From a virus (lineage: Duplodnaviria; Heunggongvirae; Uroviricota; Caudoviricetes): a DNA stretch of 34,924 nucleotides. The notes under the pieces were generated by a model. It saw nothing but the letters and a program-made list of their open reading frames with translations. It searched no databases and had not been told where the DNA came from. This document shows positions 24,203 to 32,177 of the stretch, one piece after another. The stretch lies in IMG/VR virus record IMGVR_UViG_2896589216_000002; one strand, given 5' to 3'. A program made the translations under genes and the position numbers. Numbering within the stretch: position 1 is the stretch's first letter; every line of letters starts with the position of its first letter.

Positions 24203-24277
<75 letters not shown>

Positions 24278-24280
24278 ATA

Positions 24281-24357
<77 letters not shown>

Positions 24358-24359
24358 CT

Positions 24360-24436
24360 GGCCCACCACCGAGGACTCGAACCTCGCACCGTCAACTTAG
24401 AAGGTTGATGCTCTATCCGGATGAGCTAGTGGTGGT
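24360..24436 (-). tRNA. tRNA-Arg (anticodon UCU), phage argN/argO-like
   Basis: Anticodon loop CTTCTAA, T-loop TTCGAGT, CCA; unusual C1:G72 acceptor pair. Confidence 0.8.
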
Positions 24437-24437
24437 T

Positions 24438-24514
24438 GGTGGCCCTTGCTGGACTTGAACCAGCGACCTGGCGATTATGAGTCGCTCGCTCTGACCAACT
24501 GAGCTAAAGGGCCG
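24438..24514 (-). tRNA. tRNA with CAU anticodon, ileX/ileZ-like (probable tRNA-Ile2; Met not excluded)
   Basis: GGCCCTT acceptor, anticodon loop CTCATAA, T-arm GCTGGTTCAAGTCCAGC resembling E. coli ileX. Confidence 0.7.
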
Positions 24515-28826: not shown

Positions 28827-29186
28827 TTACAACATTGTCAGTGCGTTAAGGCGGGATGTTTTTGGCTGACGCCAGTCCAGCTTATCGAGGAGCATTGCCA
28901 GTTGCGAGCGGGTAATGGATACCTTGCCGTCACGCACAGCAGGCCAGATAAACTGGCCTTCCTCCAGGCGTCTGGTGAACAGGCACAGACCATCAGCATC
29001 AGCCCACAGGATTTTAATCATGTCACCCCGTCGGCCACGGAAGATGAACAGGTGACCGGAGAAGGGATTATCATTCAGCACATGCTGTACCTGTTCACCC
29101 AGCCCGTTGAAAGACTTACGCATATCGGTTATCCCAGCAACGAGCCAGATGCGGGTGCCTGACGGGAGTGAGATCATCGTCCCCAC
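28827..29186 (-). CDS. tnpB: IS66-family TnpB (second element), 119 aa
   Basis: Clear paralogue of the 115-aa TnpB (...WLVAGITDMR...NGL...FIFRGRRG...). Confidence 0.8.
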   Translation of the reverse strand: MGTMISLPSGTRIWLVAGITDMRKSFNGLGEQVQHVLNDNPFSGHLFIFRGRRGDMIKILWADADGLCLFTRRLEEGQFIWPAVRDGKVSITRSQLAMLLDKLDWRQPKTSRLNALTML

Positions 29187-29593
29187 CCGGTCAGTTCACG
29201 GATCAACACTGTGAGCAGCTCTGGTGAAGGATTTTCCAGCGTCATGTTACCGTGACGGAACTCCACCTTGCAGGAGCTGGCACTAACTGTAGTCTGAGTA
29301 GATAAAGACGGAGTAAGAGCAGCCACCGGTTCTTTCGGCTCATCCGGCGTTATCTCCACAGGTAATAATTCAACGCCAGTGTCAGAAGAGGTTGTTACCG
29401 GAAGACGCCGCGATATGCGCCCTTCGTTCTGCCAGAGCCTGAGCCATTTGAACAGCAGGTTATCATTGATATCGTGTTCCCGGGCAATACGGGCAACAGA
29501 GGCTCCTGGTTGTGAAGCCAGTTTAACCATTTGAAGTTTAAACTCATTTGAAAATGATCTGCGGGGTTCTGCAGATAATGCTTTCTGTTCCAT
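29174..29593 (-). CDS. tnpA: IS66-family TnpA (second element), 139 aa
   Basis: HTH protein paralogous to tnpA. Confidence 0.75.
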   Translation of the reverse strand: MEQKALSAEPRRSFSNEFKLQMVKLASQPGASVARIAREHDINDNLLFKWLRLWQNEGRISRRLPVTTSSDTGVELLPVEITPDEPKEPVAALTPSLSTQTTVSASSCKVEFRHGNMTLENPSPELLTVLIRELTGWGR

Positions 29594-29679
29594 AACAGGT
29601 GTCCACTAGTTGAAAAGGTGGGCACCTACGTTACCAATACAGGCTTAATGGCTACATACGGCGGTCAGTTTACGCTTAC

Positions 29680-30017
29680 CAAAATACGCTGTTGCTTTTT
29701 TTAATATATATCGCTCAAGGCGAGCTTCATTTAACGCCTTACGCAGTTGCAGAATTTCAGATTCCAGTTCAGCCACCGTGCGGGAACCAGGAGTACCGAG
29801 CCCTTTTCTGGCGGCGGTAACCCATTGTCCTAAAGTGCCTTCAGGAAGGGATAATCGGGAAGCGCCTTCACTGATCGAAAGTTGATTTTCAAGAACCGTT
29901 CTGACAGCTTCGGCTTTGAACTCTTTAGAGTAACGTTGGTTTTTTCTGCTCATTATTAGCTCCTTCTGATGCCATTCTATTTCAGGAAGGAGTGTCCGTT
30001 AAACTCAGGCTACCTCA
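29680..30017 (-). mobile_element. IS600 fragment (IRL + most of orfA), truncated by the IS66-family remnant
   Basis: OrfA MSRKNQRYSKEFKAEAVRTVLENQLSISEGASRL...; end tgaggtagcctgagtttaacggacactcc (complement, 29989-30017); A7G slippery run. Confidence 0.85.
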
Positions 30018-30076: not shown

Positions 30077-30622
30077 TTATTTTAAGGAAAGCAACTGCTC
30101 TACGGTCATGTTTTTAATTGCGCCCCGGTTTACAAGAGTCCAGCCCTGTTTTTCCAGATAAAACCGGAAAGTCTCCAGGGTACAGACCAGTGCGCCATCA
30201 GGAACGGTTTCGGTGAATTCGACATTGCCGAATTTGTCGAAGTGAACAACCAGAGTGCGACCATCACCCGGAATCATCTTGTCAGCAGGTGGGGTGTTAT
30301 TCTGGCGCAGTTCGGCCTCCATGCGGTCGAACTCAGCAATGTAGGCTTCCTTGAATGTGGCGGCTTTTTTGCCCGTGAAGCCCATCACCAGGAAAACGAA
30401 GCCGTTTTTGGTGATTTGGTAGGCGTTATAAGAATTGCCGCGGTGTTCGAATTTAACCCGCGAAAAGTTGCTGGTTAAAAATAGTTCAGAACATTCGAGG
30501 GATTCTATTTTTTGAACAACATGGTGATGCTGCTTGCCAAAAAACTCAGCAATCGAAATAGAAGTAGTGACGGCGCGACCATTTTCGATGGTTACGTCAG
30601 GGTGAGAAAGGGTAGTAGCCAT
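30077..30622 (-). CDS. Rha-family phage regulatory protein, ~182 aa from ATG at 30622
   Basis: N-terminal Rha motif (VTTSISIAEFFGKQHHHVVQKIESL); RBS gagga 8 nt upstream; longer 274-aa ORF in track is probably an over-extension. Confidence 0.65.
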   Translation of the reverse strand: MATTLSHPDVTIENGRAVTTSISIAEFFGKQHHHVVQKIESLECSELFLTSNFSRVKFEHRGNSYNAYQITKNGFVFLVMGFTGKKAATFKEAYIAEFDRMEAELRQNNTPPADKMIPGDGRTLVVHFDKFGNVEFTETVPDGALVCTLETFRFYLEKQGWTLVNRGAIKNMTVEQLLSLK

Positions 30623-30788
30623 AATGACATCCTCAAGTGATAAGTTAATTAACTCACCAGCAGAGGTGCTAATCTCATGGGTGGTGAGACGCACAGGGTT
30701 AGCACTACCGGTCACTCGAGAACCCGGCCAGCCTTGCGGCTGCCCCGCACGCCTCACCATAATTTGAATGTGGCTGTGCATTACGCAT

Positions 30789-30814
30789 AAAAAAAACCGC
30801 TTCAGCGCGGTTAT
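30789..30814 (-). terminator. strong rho-independent terminator
   Basis: Minus-strand hairpin aaccgcgctgaagcggtt followed by T8. Confidence 0.7.
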
Positions 30815-30866
30815 GCGCTCGAGTAACTTTCGGGGTGCTAATCCCGGCGCCCGTTTTATGAGGTGC
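30789..30866 (-). ncRNA. candidate ~80-nt small RNA or leader transcript bounded by the promoter and terminator above
   Basis: No start codon inside; predicted RNA gcaccucauaaaacgggcgccgggauuagcaccccgaaaguuacucgagcgcauaaccgcgcugaagcgguuuuuuuu. Confidence 0.4.
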
Positions 30867-31150: not shown

Positions 31151-31338
31151 ACAGCAATGTCGTTATTTACAACCGGAAGCGCACTCCCACCATTTAAATT
31201 TCACAGACAAGACCGACTCTTTATGAATACCGGAAATGCGCCTTCGTGTTGTGCCCGGTTTTATTTCACCACCTCCGGGCTTTGGTGGCCTCGGCTATAC
31301 CTCTACAGCGAGAATATTGAATTAATCCAATAAATGGA

Positions 31339-31491
31339 TTAGCTGGTATTTTTGGCAAGCCAGCGACGTGCGCCAGCTTCGGTTTTAAACGTTTTGCTTT
31401 TGGTATACGTCATGGCGGTGAATGTGCCGTCCTGATTGGGAAACACGCCACACACTAGGGATTCGTTGTTGCCAAGATCGATAGTATCCAT
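31339..31491 (-). CDS. ydfA: YdfA-like protein (DUF1391), 51 aa from ATG at 31491
   Basis: MDTIDLGNNESLVCGVFPNQDGTFTAMTYTKSKTFK... closely matches Qin YdfA; RBS gagg upstream. Confidence 0.75.
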   Translation of the reverse strand: MDTIDLGNNESLVCGVFPNQDGTFTAMTYTKSKTFKTEAGARRWLAKNTS

Positions 31492-31693
31492 GCTGACCTC
31501 ATTTCCCCTTAACGCCGGGGTAGCGGAACTGTTTGCTGAGAACACCGTGCGGTGTCTTGATGAATGAAATTTAGAATAACCTAAGGTGTTGGGTTAAGAT
31601 TTTATGTAGAAAAACCTAAGTTTTTTTGATGTAAAAAACACAAGTGTTTGAAAGTTTGTGCTTTTTATTACAGGGTGTGGAGAAAAAAGGGGA

Positions 31694-32101
31694 TTATTTG
31701 TTTGCGCTTCTTTTGCGAGCTTTGAGTAGTTCTTCAAAAAGTTTGTTGAAATTTTCAACTCGAGCACGCATCTCTGACAACAGGGCCTTTTGCTCTGACT
31801 CAGGCAGTGCGTCGAACAGTTGAAGTAACTCTTTTTGATCTTCTGTCAGAATGGCTGGCTGATTATCCGGGATCGGTTCGCCTGGTTGTTTATCTTCATC
31901 CCCAAAAAGAAGCCAAGTCGGTGAGCACTGAAGCGCTTGGCTCAGTGCGAATAATCTTTTCCCCGCCGGCTGTGTTTCATCTCTTTCCCATTGAGAAATT
32001 GTTACGTGAGCCACTTTGACCAGCTTACCTAATGCGGCCTGAGACAGTTTTAATTTTTTACGCCTATGTAAGAGGCGAGCACCGAAGGTTTCGTTTTTCA
32101 T
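31694..32101 (-). CDS. dicA: DicA-like XRE-family HTH repressor, 135 aa
   Basis: Motifs LQCSPTWLLFGDEDKQP, LFDALPESEQ, EMRARVENFNKLFEELLKAR match DicA; divergent from a Cro-like gene. Confidence 0.8.
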   Translation of the reverse strand: MKNETFGARLLHRRKKLKLSQAALGKLVKVAHVTISQWERDETQPAGKRLFALSQALQCSPTWLLFGDEDKQPGEPIPDNQPAILTEDQKELLQLFDALPESEQKALLSEMRARVENFNKLFEELLKARKRSANK

Positions 32102-32177
32102 ATTAGGGAATTCTAATTTTTCTTGACTTAGGTTTCTCTACGAGCTAGTTTCCTTAGGAAAATCTAAGGAGCTCGAT
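32102..32177. promoter_or_regulatory. dicA-dicC divergent control region with repeated CTTAGG/CCTAAG motifs (candidate operators)
   Basis: ttaggga, gacttaggttt, ccttaggaaaatctaagga; same hexamer recurs downstream of dicA (31580-31630). Confidence 0.4.

What the first reader, a model, noticed from the sequence alone, without database searches (positions are those of the whole stretch)
31546..32177. Repeated CCTAAG/CTTAGG hexamers on both sides of dicA (candidate operators)
The hexamer or its complement occurs at least five times: three in the dicA-dicC divergent region (32105-32170) and two in the dicA-ydfA spacer (about 31585 and 31620). In Qin, DicA represses both the divergent promoter and the dicB-operon promoter downstream of dicA, and this distribution fits that architecture.
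Basis: partly seen in the sequence, partly recalled or inferred. Interest (0 to 1): 0.45.

Follow-up and report, generated by a model that had tools for sequence, protein, structure and literature searches.

The report
DicA/DicC operator half-sites flanking dicA
The repeated CCTAAG/CTTAGG hexamers are the strong half-sites of five 18-bp palindromic operators of a P22/Qin-type prophage immunity switch; this is a real but ordinary feature, an uncharacterised allele of a well-known system.

Summary
The exact hexamer occurs four times in the region, not five. The fifth, at 32164, is CTAAGG, offset by one base. Only one other copy exists in the 34.9-kb window.

The real unit is an 18-bp palindrome, n-CTTAG-R-N4-Y-CTAAG-n, with core TTAG-N6-CTAA:
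- three sit between dicA and dicC (O1 32152-32169, O2 32126-32143, O3 32101-32118);
- two sit between dicA and ydfA (OL1 31569-31586, OL2 31604-31621).

The exact core occurs 3 times against 0.29 expected. In 20 diverged relatives it occurs 51 times in the two spacers and never in 49 kb of flanks.

The same core is the Qin Oc operator, which binds DicA in vivo and is inactivated by a CTAA-to-CTCA change. It also matches the DicC ChIP-seq motif. Sites, spacings and -35 hexamers align position by position with phage P22 OR/OL. The repressor's DNA-binding domain is 63% identical to P22 c2's.

What is new is modest. This allele has C at operator position 2 where Qin has G, and that tracks residue 22 of the repressor. 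Here dicC is frameshifted and the leftward -35 is mutated. Binding itself is untested.

The parts
32152..32169 (.). O1, equivalent to Qin Oc and P22 OR1. Sequence CCTTAGGAAAATCTAAGG, halves CTTAGG / CTTAGA, centre AAAA. It lies just after the PdicC -10, over the inferred dicC transcription start, and its right half overlaps the dicC Shine-Dalgarno AAGGAG.
   Evidence: Exact TTAG-N6-CTAA core. Found at -65/-66 from the dicA ATG in all relatives. Aligns with Qin Oc and P22 OR1. Oc binds DicA in vivo.
32126..32143 (.). O2, equivalent to Qin Om and P22 OR2. Sequence ACTTAGGTTTCTCTACGA: one consensus half CTTAGG and one weak half CGTAGA. Its left edge overlaps the PdicC -35.
   Evidence: Core with 1 mismatch. 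Found at -40 from the dicA ATG in most relatives of this subgroup. 15/16 identical to OL2 in inverted orientation (I2). Aligns with P22 OR2 including TTGACT.
32101..32118 (.). O3, equivalent to Qin Oa and P22 OR3. Sequence TATTAGGGAATTCTAATT, halves ATTAGG / ATTAGA. It abuts the dicA start codon and contains the candidate PdicA -10.
   Evidence: Exact core. Found at -15/-16 from the dicA ATG in all relatives, including Yersinia and Citrobacter. Aligns with P22 OR3, which also abuts the c2 ATG.
31569..31586 (.). OL1. On the - strand it reads CCTTAGGTTATTCTAAAT, halves CTTAGG / TTTAGA, centre all A/T. It fills the spacer between the -35 and -10 of the leftward (dicBp/PL-like) promoter and overlaps the -10.
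   Evidence: Exact core. Invariant in close relatives while the ~10 bp between it and the -35 are hypervariable. Aligns with P22 OL1 and the Qin dicBp site.
31604..31621 (.). OL2. On the - strand it reads ACTTAGGTTTTTCTACAT, one consensus half and one weak half. It lies upstream of the dicBp -35, 35 bp centre-to-centre from OL1.
   Evidence: Core with 1 mismatch. The 35-36 bp spacing is conserved in relatives and in P22.
32123..32151 (+). Candidate PdicC (PR-like) promoter: -35 TTGACT 32123-32128, 17-bp spacer, -10 TAGTTT 32146-32151.
   Evidence: Read from the sequence. The -35 is conserved in relatives, K-12 and P22. The -10 position keeps TAnnnT in most relatives, including K-12. It falls below the generic scanner's threshold. 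The transcription start is not mapped here.
32110..32115 (-). Candidate PdicA (PRM-like) -10, TAGAAT, inside O3 and 8 nt before the dicA ATG. This implies a leaderless or near-leaderless dicA mRNA. Only a poor -35 is present (GAGAAA, 32138->32133).
   Evidence: Read from the sequence. TTAGAAT is conserved from E. coli to Yersinia. This is inference only. Yun 2012 and Reg-Seq found no obvious dicA promoter in K-12.
31568..31597 (-). Candidate leftward promoter (dicBp/PL-like): -35 TTAACC (31597->31592; TTGACC in nearly all relatives), 18-bp spacer, -10 TAAATT (31573->31568).
   Evidence: Aligns with P22 PL (TTGACC) and with the TTGACC/TAATCT hexamers of the Qin dicA-ydfA spacer, which I read as dicBp. 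In Qin, deleting dicA derepresses dicBp 22-fold.
31694..32101 (-). dicA-like repressor gene (135 aa). An N-terminal five-helix HTH domain is joined to a C-terminal helix plus long helix. There is no S24 peptidase domain.
   Evidence: Pfam HTH_3 7.8e-14. 62% identical to K-12 DicA. Matches the P22 c2 N-terminal domain at E 1e-21. The AF2 model (pLDDT 84) superposes on the P22 c2-operator complex 3jxb at 0.5 A over 65 residues.
32178..32406 (+). dicC-like (P22 Cro family) gene, disrupted by a 1-nt insertion (A at 32224) that gives a stop after 22 codons.
   Evidence: The intact 75-aa version in L002 is 75% identical to K-12 DicC. 52 of 55 close relatives are intact.
31339..31491 (-). ydfA (DUF1391), first gene of the leftward, DicA-repressed operon.
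   Evidence: Pfam DUF1391 7.9e-30. It occupies the same position as ydfA in K-12 Qin.

Best explanation
The hexamers are the consensus half-sites (positions 2-7, CTTAGG) of 18-bp two-fold-symmetric operators of a lambdoid, P22/Qin-type prophage immunity switch.

Proposed mechanism (inferred):
- A dimer of the DicA-like repressor places one helix-turn-helix on each half-site, leaving a 4-bp central segment uncontacted, as P22 c2 does.
- On the right, O1 and O2 cover the transcription start and the -35/spacer of the rightward dicC-ydaT promoter. O3 covers the -10 of the leftward dicA promoter and abuts the dicA ATG.
- On the left, OL1 fills the -35/-10 spacer of the promoter of the ydfA operon, and OL2 lies just upstream of it.
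- Repressor at O1/O2 and OL1/OL2 shuts both outward promoters. By analogy with Qin, repressor at O1 may also stimulate dicA transcription.
- Occupancy of O3, by excess DicA or by the Cro-like DicC, shuts dicA.
- DicC is expected to read the same TTAG...CTAA core.

Shown here: the sites, their symmetry, their statistical excess, their conservation at fixed positions, their homology to Qin and P22 operators, and the homology of the proteins.

Not shown: which protein binds which site, the order of filling, the promoter starts, and activation.

In this window the switch is partly decayed. dicC is frameshifted and the leftward -35 is TTAACC instead of TTGACC. The likely present function is stable DicA-mediated silencing plus autoregulation.
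For: 1. Statistics. 4 of the window's 5 CCTAAG copies and all 3 exact TTAG-N6-CTAA cores lie in 279 bp of spacers. No shuffle, window-wide or local, reaches these counts.

2. Anatomy. There are five 18-mers sharing nCTTAGR-N4-YCTAAGn. Centre spacings are 25 and 26 bp on the right and 35 bp on the left.

3. Experimental anchor in Qin.
- Oc, TTGTTAGTCATAACTAACAA, has the same core at the same position (-66 from the dicA ATG). It binds DicA in vivo, and an A-to-C change in CTAA abolishes binding. DicA at Oc represses dicC and activates dicA (PMC3441716; sequence).
- Deleting dicA derepresses dicBp 22-fold (PMC10448788).
- DicC ChIP-seq peaks lie on both sides of dicA, with the motif TT(A/C/T)G...C(G/A/T)AA (PMC11430063).

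4. Phylogenetic footprint.
- Relatives from Pantoea, Erwinia, Enterobacter, Citrobacter, Buttiauxella, E. albertii, E. ruysiae and Yersinia, plus 80 viral contigs, have cores at -15/16, (-40) and -65/66 from the ATG. They also have a pair 35-36 bp apart bracketing a TTGAYC/TTGCC-type (-35-like) hexamer downstream.
- In 20 diverged loci there are 51 exact cores in 5.7 kb of spacers and 0 in 49.4 kb elsewhere.
- In close relatives the bases between the -35 and OL1 vary freely while OL2, the -35 and OL1 do not.

5. Protein-operator co-variation.
- Repressors with A/S/T/V at residue 22 have CCTTAG..CTAAGG.
- Those with R22 have TGTTAG..CTAACA.
- A subgroup with a changed recognition helix (SHATISLWE) has GGTAAG-type sites.

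6. Homology to P22.
- The N-terminal domain is 63% identical to P22 c2 and superposes at 0.5 A on its DNA complex.
- P22 OR1-3 and OL1-2 align site by site, with the same -35 hexamers and a c2 ATG abutting OR3.
- P22 c2 contacts positions 2-7 and 12-17 of an 18-bp site (PMC4267663).
Against: - No binding or expression data exist for this allele.
- In K-12 the two sites equivalent to O2 and O3 (Om, Oa) did not bind DicA in an in vivo single-site assay, although Oa has a perfect core. Some of the five sites may therefore need cooperativity, or may be mainly DicC sites.
- Part of the conservation has other causes. The O2 left half abuts the -35 TTGACT. The O1 right half overlaps the dicC Shine-Dalgarno. 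O3 and OL1 contain -10 hexamers.
- The whole 76-bp right spacer is conserved, not only the half-sites.
- The generic promoter scan did not call any of the three promoters, and no transcription start is mapped.
- dicC is a pseudogene here, so the two-protein switch cannot operate in this genome.
Confidence: 0.87

Rival explanations
1. Chance recurrence of a short word in AT-rich phage intergenic DNA, with no function.
For: The spacers are AT-rich (35-39% GC against 53% for the window). Hexamers recur easily in such DNA.
Against: - 0 of 5000 local dinucleotide-preserving shuffles reach 4 hexamers (mean 0.26) or 3 exact palindrome cores (mean 0.016).
- Window-wide the word is depleted.
- The sites are conserved at fixed offsets in relatives with only 52-75% identical repressors.
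Confidence: 0.01
2. The sites are real operators, but DicA alone occupies only the most symmetric ones (O1, perhaps OL1). O2, O3 and OL2 would be primarily DicC (Cro-like) sites, or would be filled only cooperatively. The reader's picture of five DicA operators would then overstate DicA's role.
For: - In K-12, Om and Oa did not bind DicA in the single-site in vivo assay, although Oa has a perfect core.
- DicC ChIP-seq gives the bare TTnG...CnAA motif on both sides of dicA.
- DicC is more conserved between this allele and Qin (75%) than DicA is (62%), while the operators differ only in their flanks. This fits DicC reading the core and DicA reading core plus flank.
- O3 lacks the C at position 2, and O2/OL2 have a degenerate half.
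Against: - In P22 and lambda, the repressor fills weak sites cooperatively and Cro binds the same sites, so the two roles are not exclusive.
- O2 and OL2 each keep one perfect CTTAGG half.
- dicBp is repressed by DicA but unaffected by deleting dicC in K-12.
Confidence: 0.3
3. The repeated word is conserved because it is part of promoter and translation signals (next to the -35 TTGACT; the Shine-Dalgarno AAGGAG; the -10 hexamers), not because a repressor reads it.
For: - CTTAGG of O2 directly follows TTGACT.
- CTAAGG of O1 overlaps AAGGAG.
- O3 and OL1 contain TAGAAT and TAAATT.
- The whole right spacer is conserved.
Against: - Promoter signals do not explain the two-fold symmetry or the same 18-bp frame at five places.
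- OL2 lies upstream of any promoter element.
- The operator flank co-varies with the repressor sequence.
- A single-base Oc mutation abolishes DicA binding in K-12.
- In the R22 subgroup the Shine-Dalgarno is separate from the operator, yet the palindrome persists.
Confidence: 0.04
4. The sites are recognised by another prophage regulator encoded nearby (YdaT/CII-like, or the Rha-family protein) or by a host nucleoid protein, rather than by DicA/DicC.
For: - ydaT lies immediately downstream, and in Rac YdaT binds three sites in the racR-ydaS spacer.
- H-NS/Cnu affects DicA binding in K-12.
Against: - The YdaT box is TTGATT-N6-AATCAA, a different word. A good copy sits at 32383-32400, not in the spacers.
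- The operator word follows the repressor subtype.
Confidence: 0.03

Closest known systems
Qin (Kim) cryptic prophage dicA-dicC immunity region of E. coli K-12, with operators Oc/Om/Oa and the dicBp operators
   Same: - Gene order is the same: ydfA <- dicA <-> dicC.
- The repressor is 62% identical and DicC 75% identical.
- The TTAG-N6-CTAA core sits at the same offsets from the dicA ATG (-66, -16) and between the -35-like and -10-like hexamers (TTGACC/TAATCT) downstream of dicA.
- The -35 hexamers TTGACT and TTGACC are shared.
- The repressor is short, lacks an autocleavage domain, and in Qin is controlled by the antirepressor Rem.
   Different: - The operator flank differs: CCTTAG...CTAAGG here, TGTTAG...CTAACA in Qin. 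This tracks residue 22 (Ala here, Arg in Qin) and the N-terminal arm.
- The middle site keeps a good half here but is degenerate in Qin.
- ydaT follows dicC here, as in Rac, where Qin has ydfX/ydfW.
- The leftward operon here runs into an isrK-C4-Rha module rather than dicF-dicB.
- dicC is frameshifted here.
Phage P22 immC: c2 repressor / Cro with OR1-3 and OL1-3
   Same: - The N-terminal domain is 63% identical and superposes at 0.5 A on the c2-operator crystal structures.
- The 18-bp operator frame is the same, with TTA at positions 3-5.
- The layout is the same: OR3 abuts the repressor ATG, TTGACT lies in OR2, TTGACC precedes OL1, OR spacings are 25/23 against 25/26 bp, and OL1-OL2 is 35 bp in both.
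   Different: - The half-site word differs: P22 A-n-T-(T/A)-A-A-G against n-C-T-T-A-G-R here, so position 6 is A in P22 and G here.
- The first residues of the recognition helix differ: P22 S-N-V-A, here A-H-V-T.
- P22 c2 has a LexA-like cleavable C-terminal domain (216 aa). This protein has a 50-residue helical C-terminal domain and no cleavage site.
Prophage PPompW of E. coli O157:H7 (dicA annotated 'regulator for DicB')
   Same: The repressor is 97.8% identical and the operator set is the same. This is the intact version of this immunity allele, with dicC, a cell-division-inhibitor gene and rem.
   Different: No operator or binding study of that allele was found in the searched literature. 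The window's copy is decayed and interrupted by IS elements.
Lambda OR/OL genetic switch (cI/Cro)
   Same: Both have tripartite right operators between divergent repressor and cro genes, a second set at the leftward promoter, a third site overlapping the repressor's own promoter, and a probably leaderless repressor mRNA (inference).
   Different: Operator sequence and protein sequence are unrelated. Lambda uses 17-bp sites, a RecA-cleavable repressor, and an OL-OR distance of 2.4 kb against about 0.55 kb here.

Membership tests
P22/Qin-type lambdoid immunity region (repressor + Cro + OR/OL operators) | Repressor gene with an HTH domain homologous to P22 c2 / DicA | tested here: met
   HTH_3 7.8e-14. 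P22 c2 N-terminal domain E 1e-21. 62% identical to K-12 DicA. Structural superposition at 0.5 A.
P22/Qin-type lambdoid immunity region (repressor + Cro + OR/OL operators) | Divergently transcribed Cro-type gene | tested here: met
   P22_Cro PF14549 2.2e-7, 31 bits against a cut-off of 30.2. 75% identical to DicC in the intact relative. In the window itself the gene is frameshifted.
P22/Qin-type lambdoid immunity region (repressor + Cro + OR/OL operators) | Several related, imperfectly symmetric operators in both spacers flanking the repressor gene, in excess over chance | tested here: met
   Five 18-mers. Exact core 3 seen against 0.29 expected. Local shuffles 0 of 5000.
P22/Qin-type lambdoid immunity region (repressor + Cro + OR/OL operators) | Operators overlap the -35/-10 elements of the two outward promoters and of the repressor's own promoter | tested here: inconclusive
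   Positional homology of the hexamers with P22 PR/PL and with the K-12 hexamers. The generic scan calls none of them, and no transcription start is mapped.
P22/Qin-type lambdoid immunity region (repressor + Cro + OR/OL operators) | Operators conserved in position, and co-varying with the repressor, among relatives | tested here: met
P22/Qin-type lambdoid immunity region (repressor + Cro + OR/OL operators) | Repressor and Cro physically bind the sites and repress the promoters | not testable with these tools
   Known only for Qin: Oc binding and the dicBp/dicC effects, and DicC ChIP-seq.
Qin DicA immunity specificity (same operator word as K-12 Oc) | Half-site TGTTAG, with G at position 2, as in Oc and the dicBp site | tested here: not met
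   Here position 2 is C in the four consensus halves (CTTAGG), and the repressor has Ala22 instead of Arg22. Whether this prevents cross-recognition is untested.
P22 c2 immunity specificity | Half-site A-n-T-(T/A)-A-A-G, with A at position 6 | tested here: not met
   Here position 6 is G in all ten half-sites.
YdaT (CII-like) boxes | Inverted repeat TTGATT-N6-AATCAA | tested here: not met
   The hexamer sites do not match this word. A separate YdaT-box-like site lies at 32383-32400.

The most novel reading that the evidence does not exclude
This allele may define an immunity specificity distinct from Qin's within the DicA family. It would be set by operator position 2 (C here, G in Qin) and read by residue 22 at the start of helix 2 (Ala/Ser/Thr/Val here, Arg in Qin), while the Cro-like DicC reads only the shared TTAG...CTAA core. 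If so, DicA-type prophages that coexist in one cell (O157:H7 carries several) would be insulated at the repressor level but cross-talk at the Cro level. In addition, the conserved weak half GTAG shared by O2 and OL2 would be a tuned element, for cooperativity or OL-OR pairing, rather than simple decay.
Probability: 0.35. Interest if true: 0.4.

Novelty: new member of a known kind. Interest (0 to 1): 0.2.

Why it matters
DicA-type repressors silence toxic prophage genes such as dicB, dicF and lysis genes, and they are widespread in Enterobacterales: one search returned 299 protein clusters with E <= 1e-10. Pathogenic E. coli and Shigella carry several alleles at once.

Knowing the operator word of each allele, and which protein residue sets it, would allow two predictions. 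One is which prophages are co-repressed or insulated from each other. The other is which host sites they might bind.

For this window the practical outcome is an annotation: five operators, three candidate promoters, and a decayed switch. No new biology emerges.

Tried and rejected
- **Generic promoter/terminator scan of 31300-32400.** It found only an intragenic match. The promoters were placed instead by homology with P22 and K-12.
- **Rfam on the whole window.** Nothing lies in the flagged region. It did find C4, isrK and tRNAs elsewhere.
- **Conserved ydfA leader as a structured RNA of nut/put type.** RNAalifold on 9 diverse leaders gave only a 4-pair helix at -3.8 kcal/mol. This was not pursued.
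- **A third left operator upstream of OL2.** The candidate 31628-31645, ACTTGTGTTTTTTACATC on the - strand, has poor halves. That stretch is not conserved in distant relatives, so it was rejected.
- **Bejar 1986 (PMC311701).** This paper has the original operator assignments but is not held. The TF-compendium paper has no DicA text.
- **Cronobacter phage phiES15 as a further test of the word.** It has a different recognition helix and different palindromes. It is informative only as a heteroimmune relative.
- **C-terminal domain fold.** Foldseek gave only loose SinR and arbitrium-repressor-like matches at high rmsd. I do not claim a fold family for it.
Full report
**1. What is in the sequence**

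The flagged stretch contains one intact gene on the minus strand (31694-32101, 135 aa). It is a helix-turn-helix protein (Pfam HTH_3, 7.8e-14) and is 62% identical to E. coli K-12 DicA.

- To its right, reading away from it, lies a P22_Cro-family gene that begins at 32178. This gene overlaps a ydaT gene (32390-32812).
- To its left, on the same strand as dicA, lies a ydfA/DUF1391 gene (31339-31491).
- The two non-coding spacers are 32102-32177 (76 bp) and 31492-31693 (202 bp).

**2. The observation**

Exact CCTAAG/CTTAGG occurs five times in the 34,924-bp window. Four of these are in the two spacers, at 31580, 31615, 32127 and 32153.

The cluster is not a by-product of AT-richness:
- Window-wide both the hexamer (5 seen, 10.9 expected) and the pentamer (15 seen, 43 expected) are depleted.
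- When only the two spacers are shuffled with their own dinucleotide content, the mean is 0.26 hexamers. None of 5000 shuffles reaches four.

**3. The real unit**

Each hexamer is one half of an 18-bp dyad.

| Site | Coordinates | Strand read | Sequence |
|---|---|---|---|
| O1 | 32152-32169 | + | CCTTAGGAAAATCTAAGG |
| O2 | 32126-32143 | + | ACTTAGGTTTCTCTACGA |
| O3 | 32101-32118 | + | TATTAGGGAATTCTAATT |
| OL1 | 31569-31586 | - | CCTTAGGTTATTCTAAAT |
| OL2 | 31604-31621 | - | ACTTAGGTTTTTCTACAT |

- The ten half-sites (positions 2-7) are CTTAGG four times, then CTTAGA, TTTAGA, ATTAGG, ATTAGA, CGTAGA and TGTAGA. Position 7 is always a purine, which leaves a 4-bp centre.
- The core TTAG-N6-CTAA occurs exactly three times in the window (O1, O3, OL1), against 0.29 expected. 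With one mismatch it adds O2 and OL2.
- Centre-to-centre spacings are 25 and 26 bp on the right and 35 bp on the left.
- O2 and OL2 are 15/16 identical in inverted orientation, centre included.

**4. Link to experimentally studied operators**

In K-12 Qin the site called Oc is TTGTTAGTCATAACTAACAA.
- Oc binds DicA in an in vivo repression assay.
- A single A-to-C change in the CTAA half abolishes binding.
- DicA at Oc represses dicC and activates dicA (PMC3441716).

I fetched the K-12 region. Oc has the same TTAG-N6-CTAA core at the same distance from the dicA ATG as O1 (-66). Oa has it at -16, like O3. A third exact core lies between TTGACC (-35-like) and TAATCT (-10-like) hexamers downstream of dicA, like OL1.

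Further published results agree:
- Both Qin spacers are described as holding three operators each, and deleting dicA derepresses dicBp 22-fold (PMC10448788).
- DicC ChIP-seq gives its strongest peaks on either side of dicA. The bound regions share a palindrome TT(A/C/T)G...C(G/A/T)AA (PMC11430063).

**5. Phylogenetic footprint**

I collected 11 loci from a genome scan, 80 viral contigs and four contigs found through protein homologues.
- Repressors 52-100% identical to this one have cores at -15/16 and -65/66 from the ATG. In this subgroup there is usually also a one-mismatch core at -40.
- Downstream they have a pair of cores 35-36 bp apart around a TTGAYC/TTGCC-type (-35-like) hexamer.
- In 20 diverged loci the exact core occurs 51 times in 5.7 kb of spacers and not once in 49.4 kb of neighbouring sequence.
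- Among near-identical relatives the ~10 bp between the -35 and OL1 vary freely, while OL2, the -35 and OL1 are fixed.
- The right spacer is conserved almost throughout. This is expected of a 76-bp region packed with three operators, two promoters and a ribosome-binding site. It also means conservation alone cannot single out the half-sites there.

**6. Co-variation with the protein**

- All repressors with Ala, Ser, Thr or Val at residue 22 (motif LSQ-x-AL) have CCTTAG...CTAAGG at the O1 position.
- All repressors with Arg22 (TQR) have TGTTAG...CTAACA. These include K-12, E. albertii, Citrobacter, Buttiauxella and Yersinia.
- A subgroup with an altered recognition helix (SHATISLWE) has GGTAAG-type dyads.

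These groups are clades, so the association is not a count of independent events. It is nonetheless what heteroimmune lambdoid repressors show. DicC is more conserved between this allele and Qin (75%) than DicA is (62%). That fits DicC reading the shared core and DicA also reading the flank, but this is inference.

**7. Relation to P22**

- The N-terminal 68 residues match the P22 c2 DNA-binding domain (E 1e-21).
- An AlphaFold model (pLDDT 84) superposes on the c2-operator crystal structures at 0.5 A over 65 residues, with 63% identity.
- P22 c2 contacts positions 2-7 and 12-17 of 18-bp operators and leaves 8-11 uncontacted. A/T-rich centres bind tightest (PMC4267663).
- P22's own OR and OL, read from its genome, align site by site with this region:
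  - OR3 abuts the c2 ATG;
  - TTGACT is embedded in OR2;
  - TTGACC lies just before OL1;
  - OR spacings are 25 and 23 bp;
  - OL1-OL2 is 35 bp.
- The words differ at position 6 (A in P22, G here) and at position 2.
- By the P22 rule, O1, OL1 and OL2 (all-A/T centres) should be the tighter sites. O2 (TTTC) and O3 (GAAT) should be weaker. This too is inference.

**8. How it most likely works**

*Rightward promoter.* The -35 is TTGACT (32123-32128) and the -10 is TAGTTT (32146-32151). This places O2 over the -35/spacer and O1 just after the -10, over the inferred start.

*Leftward promoter.* The -35 is TTAACC (31597->31592) and the -10 is TAAATT (31573->31568). This places OL1 in the spacer and over the -10, with OL2 just upstream.

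*The dicA promoter.* On the minus strand O3 contains TAGAAT (32115->32110), 8 nt before the dicA ATG. No Shine-Dalgarno precedes the ATG. This suggests a leaderless transcript from a promoter with a poor -35, like lambda PRM.

*Inferred logic.* A DicA dimer at O1/O2 and OL1/OL2 would block both outward promoters. DicA at O1, about 59 bp upstream of the dicA start, could stimulate dicA as reported for Qin. O3 would provide negative autoregulation and a target for DicC.

*C-terminal part.* The C-terminal 50 residues are predicted as a short helix plus a 34-residue helix. There is no S24 peptidase domain. As in Qin, induction would be by an antirepressor rather than by RecA.

None of these steps was measured for this allele.

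**9. Caveats**

- In K-12 the isolated Om and Oa sites did not bind DicA in vivo, even though Oa has a perfect core. The core is therefore not sufficient. Some of the five sites may be cooperative or DicC-preferring.
- The promoters fall below the generic scanner's threshold.
- In this window dicC carries a one-base insertion at 32224 and stops after 22 codons. Fifty-two of 55 close relatives are intact.
- The leftward -35 has G-to-A (TTGACC to TTAACC).
- The locus sits among IS elements.
- The switch here is thus probably locked in the repressed state.

**10. Verdict**

The finding is real and correctly interpreted. It is a new allele of a known kind, close to the dicA region of O157:H7 prophage PPompW (97.8% identical repressor). 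I found no operator study of that allele.

The only mildly novel points are the position-2/residue-22 specificity pairing and the conserved weak half shared by O2 and OL2.

Noticed in passing
window 32178-32406 (insertion at 32224): The dicC-like gene has an extra A (aaagcAttgcc against aaagcttgcc in relatives), giving a stop after 22 codons. The reading frame resumes in the ORF 32206-32406. Only 3 of 55 close relatives (L020, L026, L059) share the frameshift.
   Followed up: yes
window 31592-31597 (- strand): The -35 of the leftward (dicBp-like) promoter is TTAACC here, where nearly all relatives, K-12 and P22 have TTGACC. This is a likely promoter-down change in a decaying prophage. L026 shares both this change and the dicC frameshift.
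   Followed up: partly
window 30077-30866 (- strand): Rfam finds a C4 antisense RNA (30677-30764, 78.6 bits) and isrK (30790-30866, 63.8 bits). Both lie directly upstream of a Rha-family ORF (30077-30640). This is a P1 immI / Gifsy isrK-like module downstream of ydfA on the same strand, so it presumably sits in the DicA-repressed leftward operon. It may be relevant to antirepressor control.
   Followed up: partly
window 32383-32400: The palindrome GTGATTcatgaaAATCAG has the ydaT start codon in its spacer. It closely resembles the published YdaT box of Rac and CP-933P (TTGATT/ATGATT-N6-AATCAA).
   Followed up: partly
window 31492-31560 (- strand leader of ydfA): The transcribed leader is strongly conserved out to Citrobacter, Pantoea and Cronobacter phage phiES15, which has a different immunity. 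It includes the inverted repeat ACACCGCACGGTGT (31542-31555) and a GTTCCGC...GGCG.TAAGG block. RNAalifold found almost no consensus structure, so its role is unknown.
   Followed up: partly
window 32126-32141 and 31606-31621: O2 and OL2 are 15/16 identical in inverted orientation, including the uncontacted centre. Their weak half (CTAC/GTAG) is conserved in relatives with 70-75% identical repressors rather than drifting. This is unexplained.
   Followed up: partly
window 24206-24513 (- strand): Four tRNA genes lie in a row (Rfam tRNA, 56-70 bits).
   Followed up: no
L095 (Escherichia phage PhiR42_1 from ECOR13, PV340562.1 6324-7910): This sequenced phage carries a repressor and operator region identical to K-12 Qin dicA/Oc/Oa. 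Qin's immunity type therefore also exists in a complete phage genome.
   Followed up: no
window 29174-29953, 33021-34924 and elsewhere: The immunity region is hemmed in by IS-element transposase ORFs: IS3/IS600-like orfA/orfB and IS1 InsA/InsB. The best E. coli match to the dicA region (98.1%; FDAARGOS_943) is also IS600/IS1-rich. The background looks Shigella-like.
   Followed up: no
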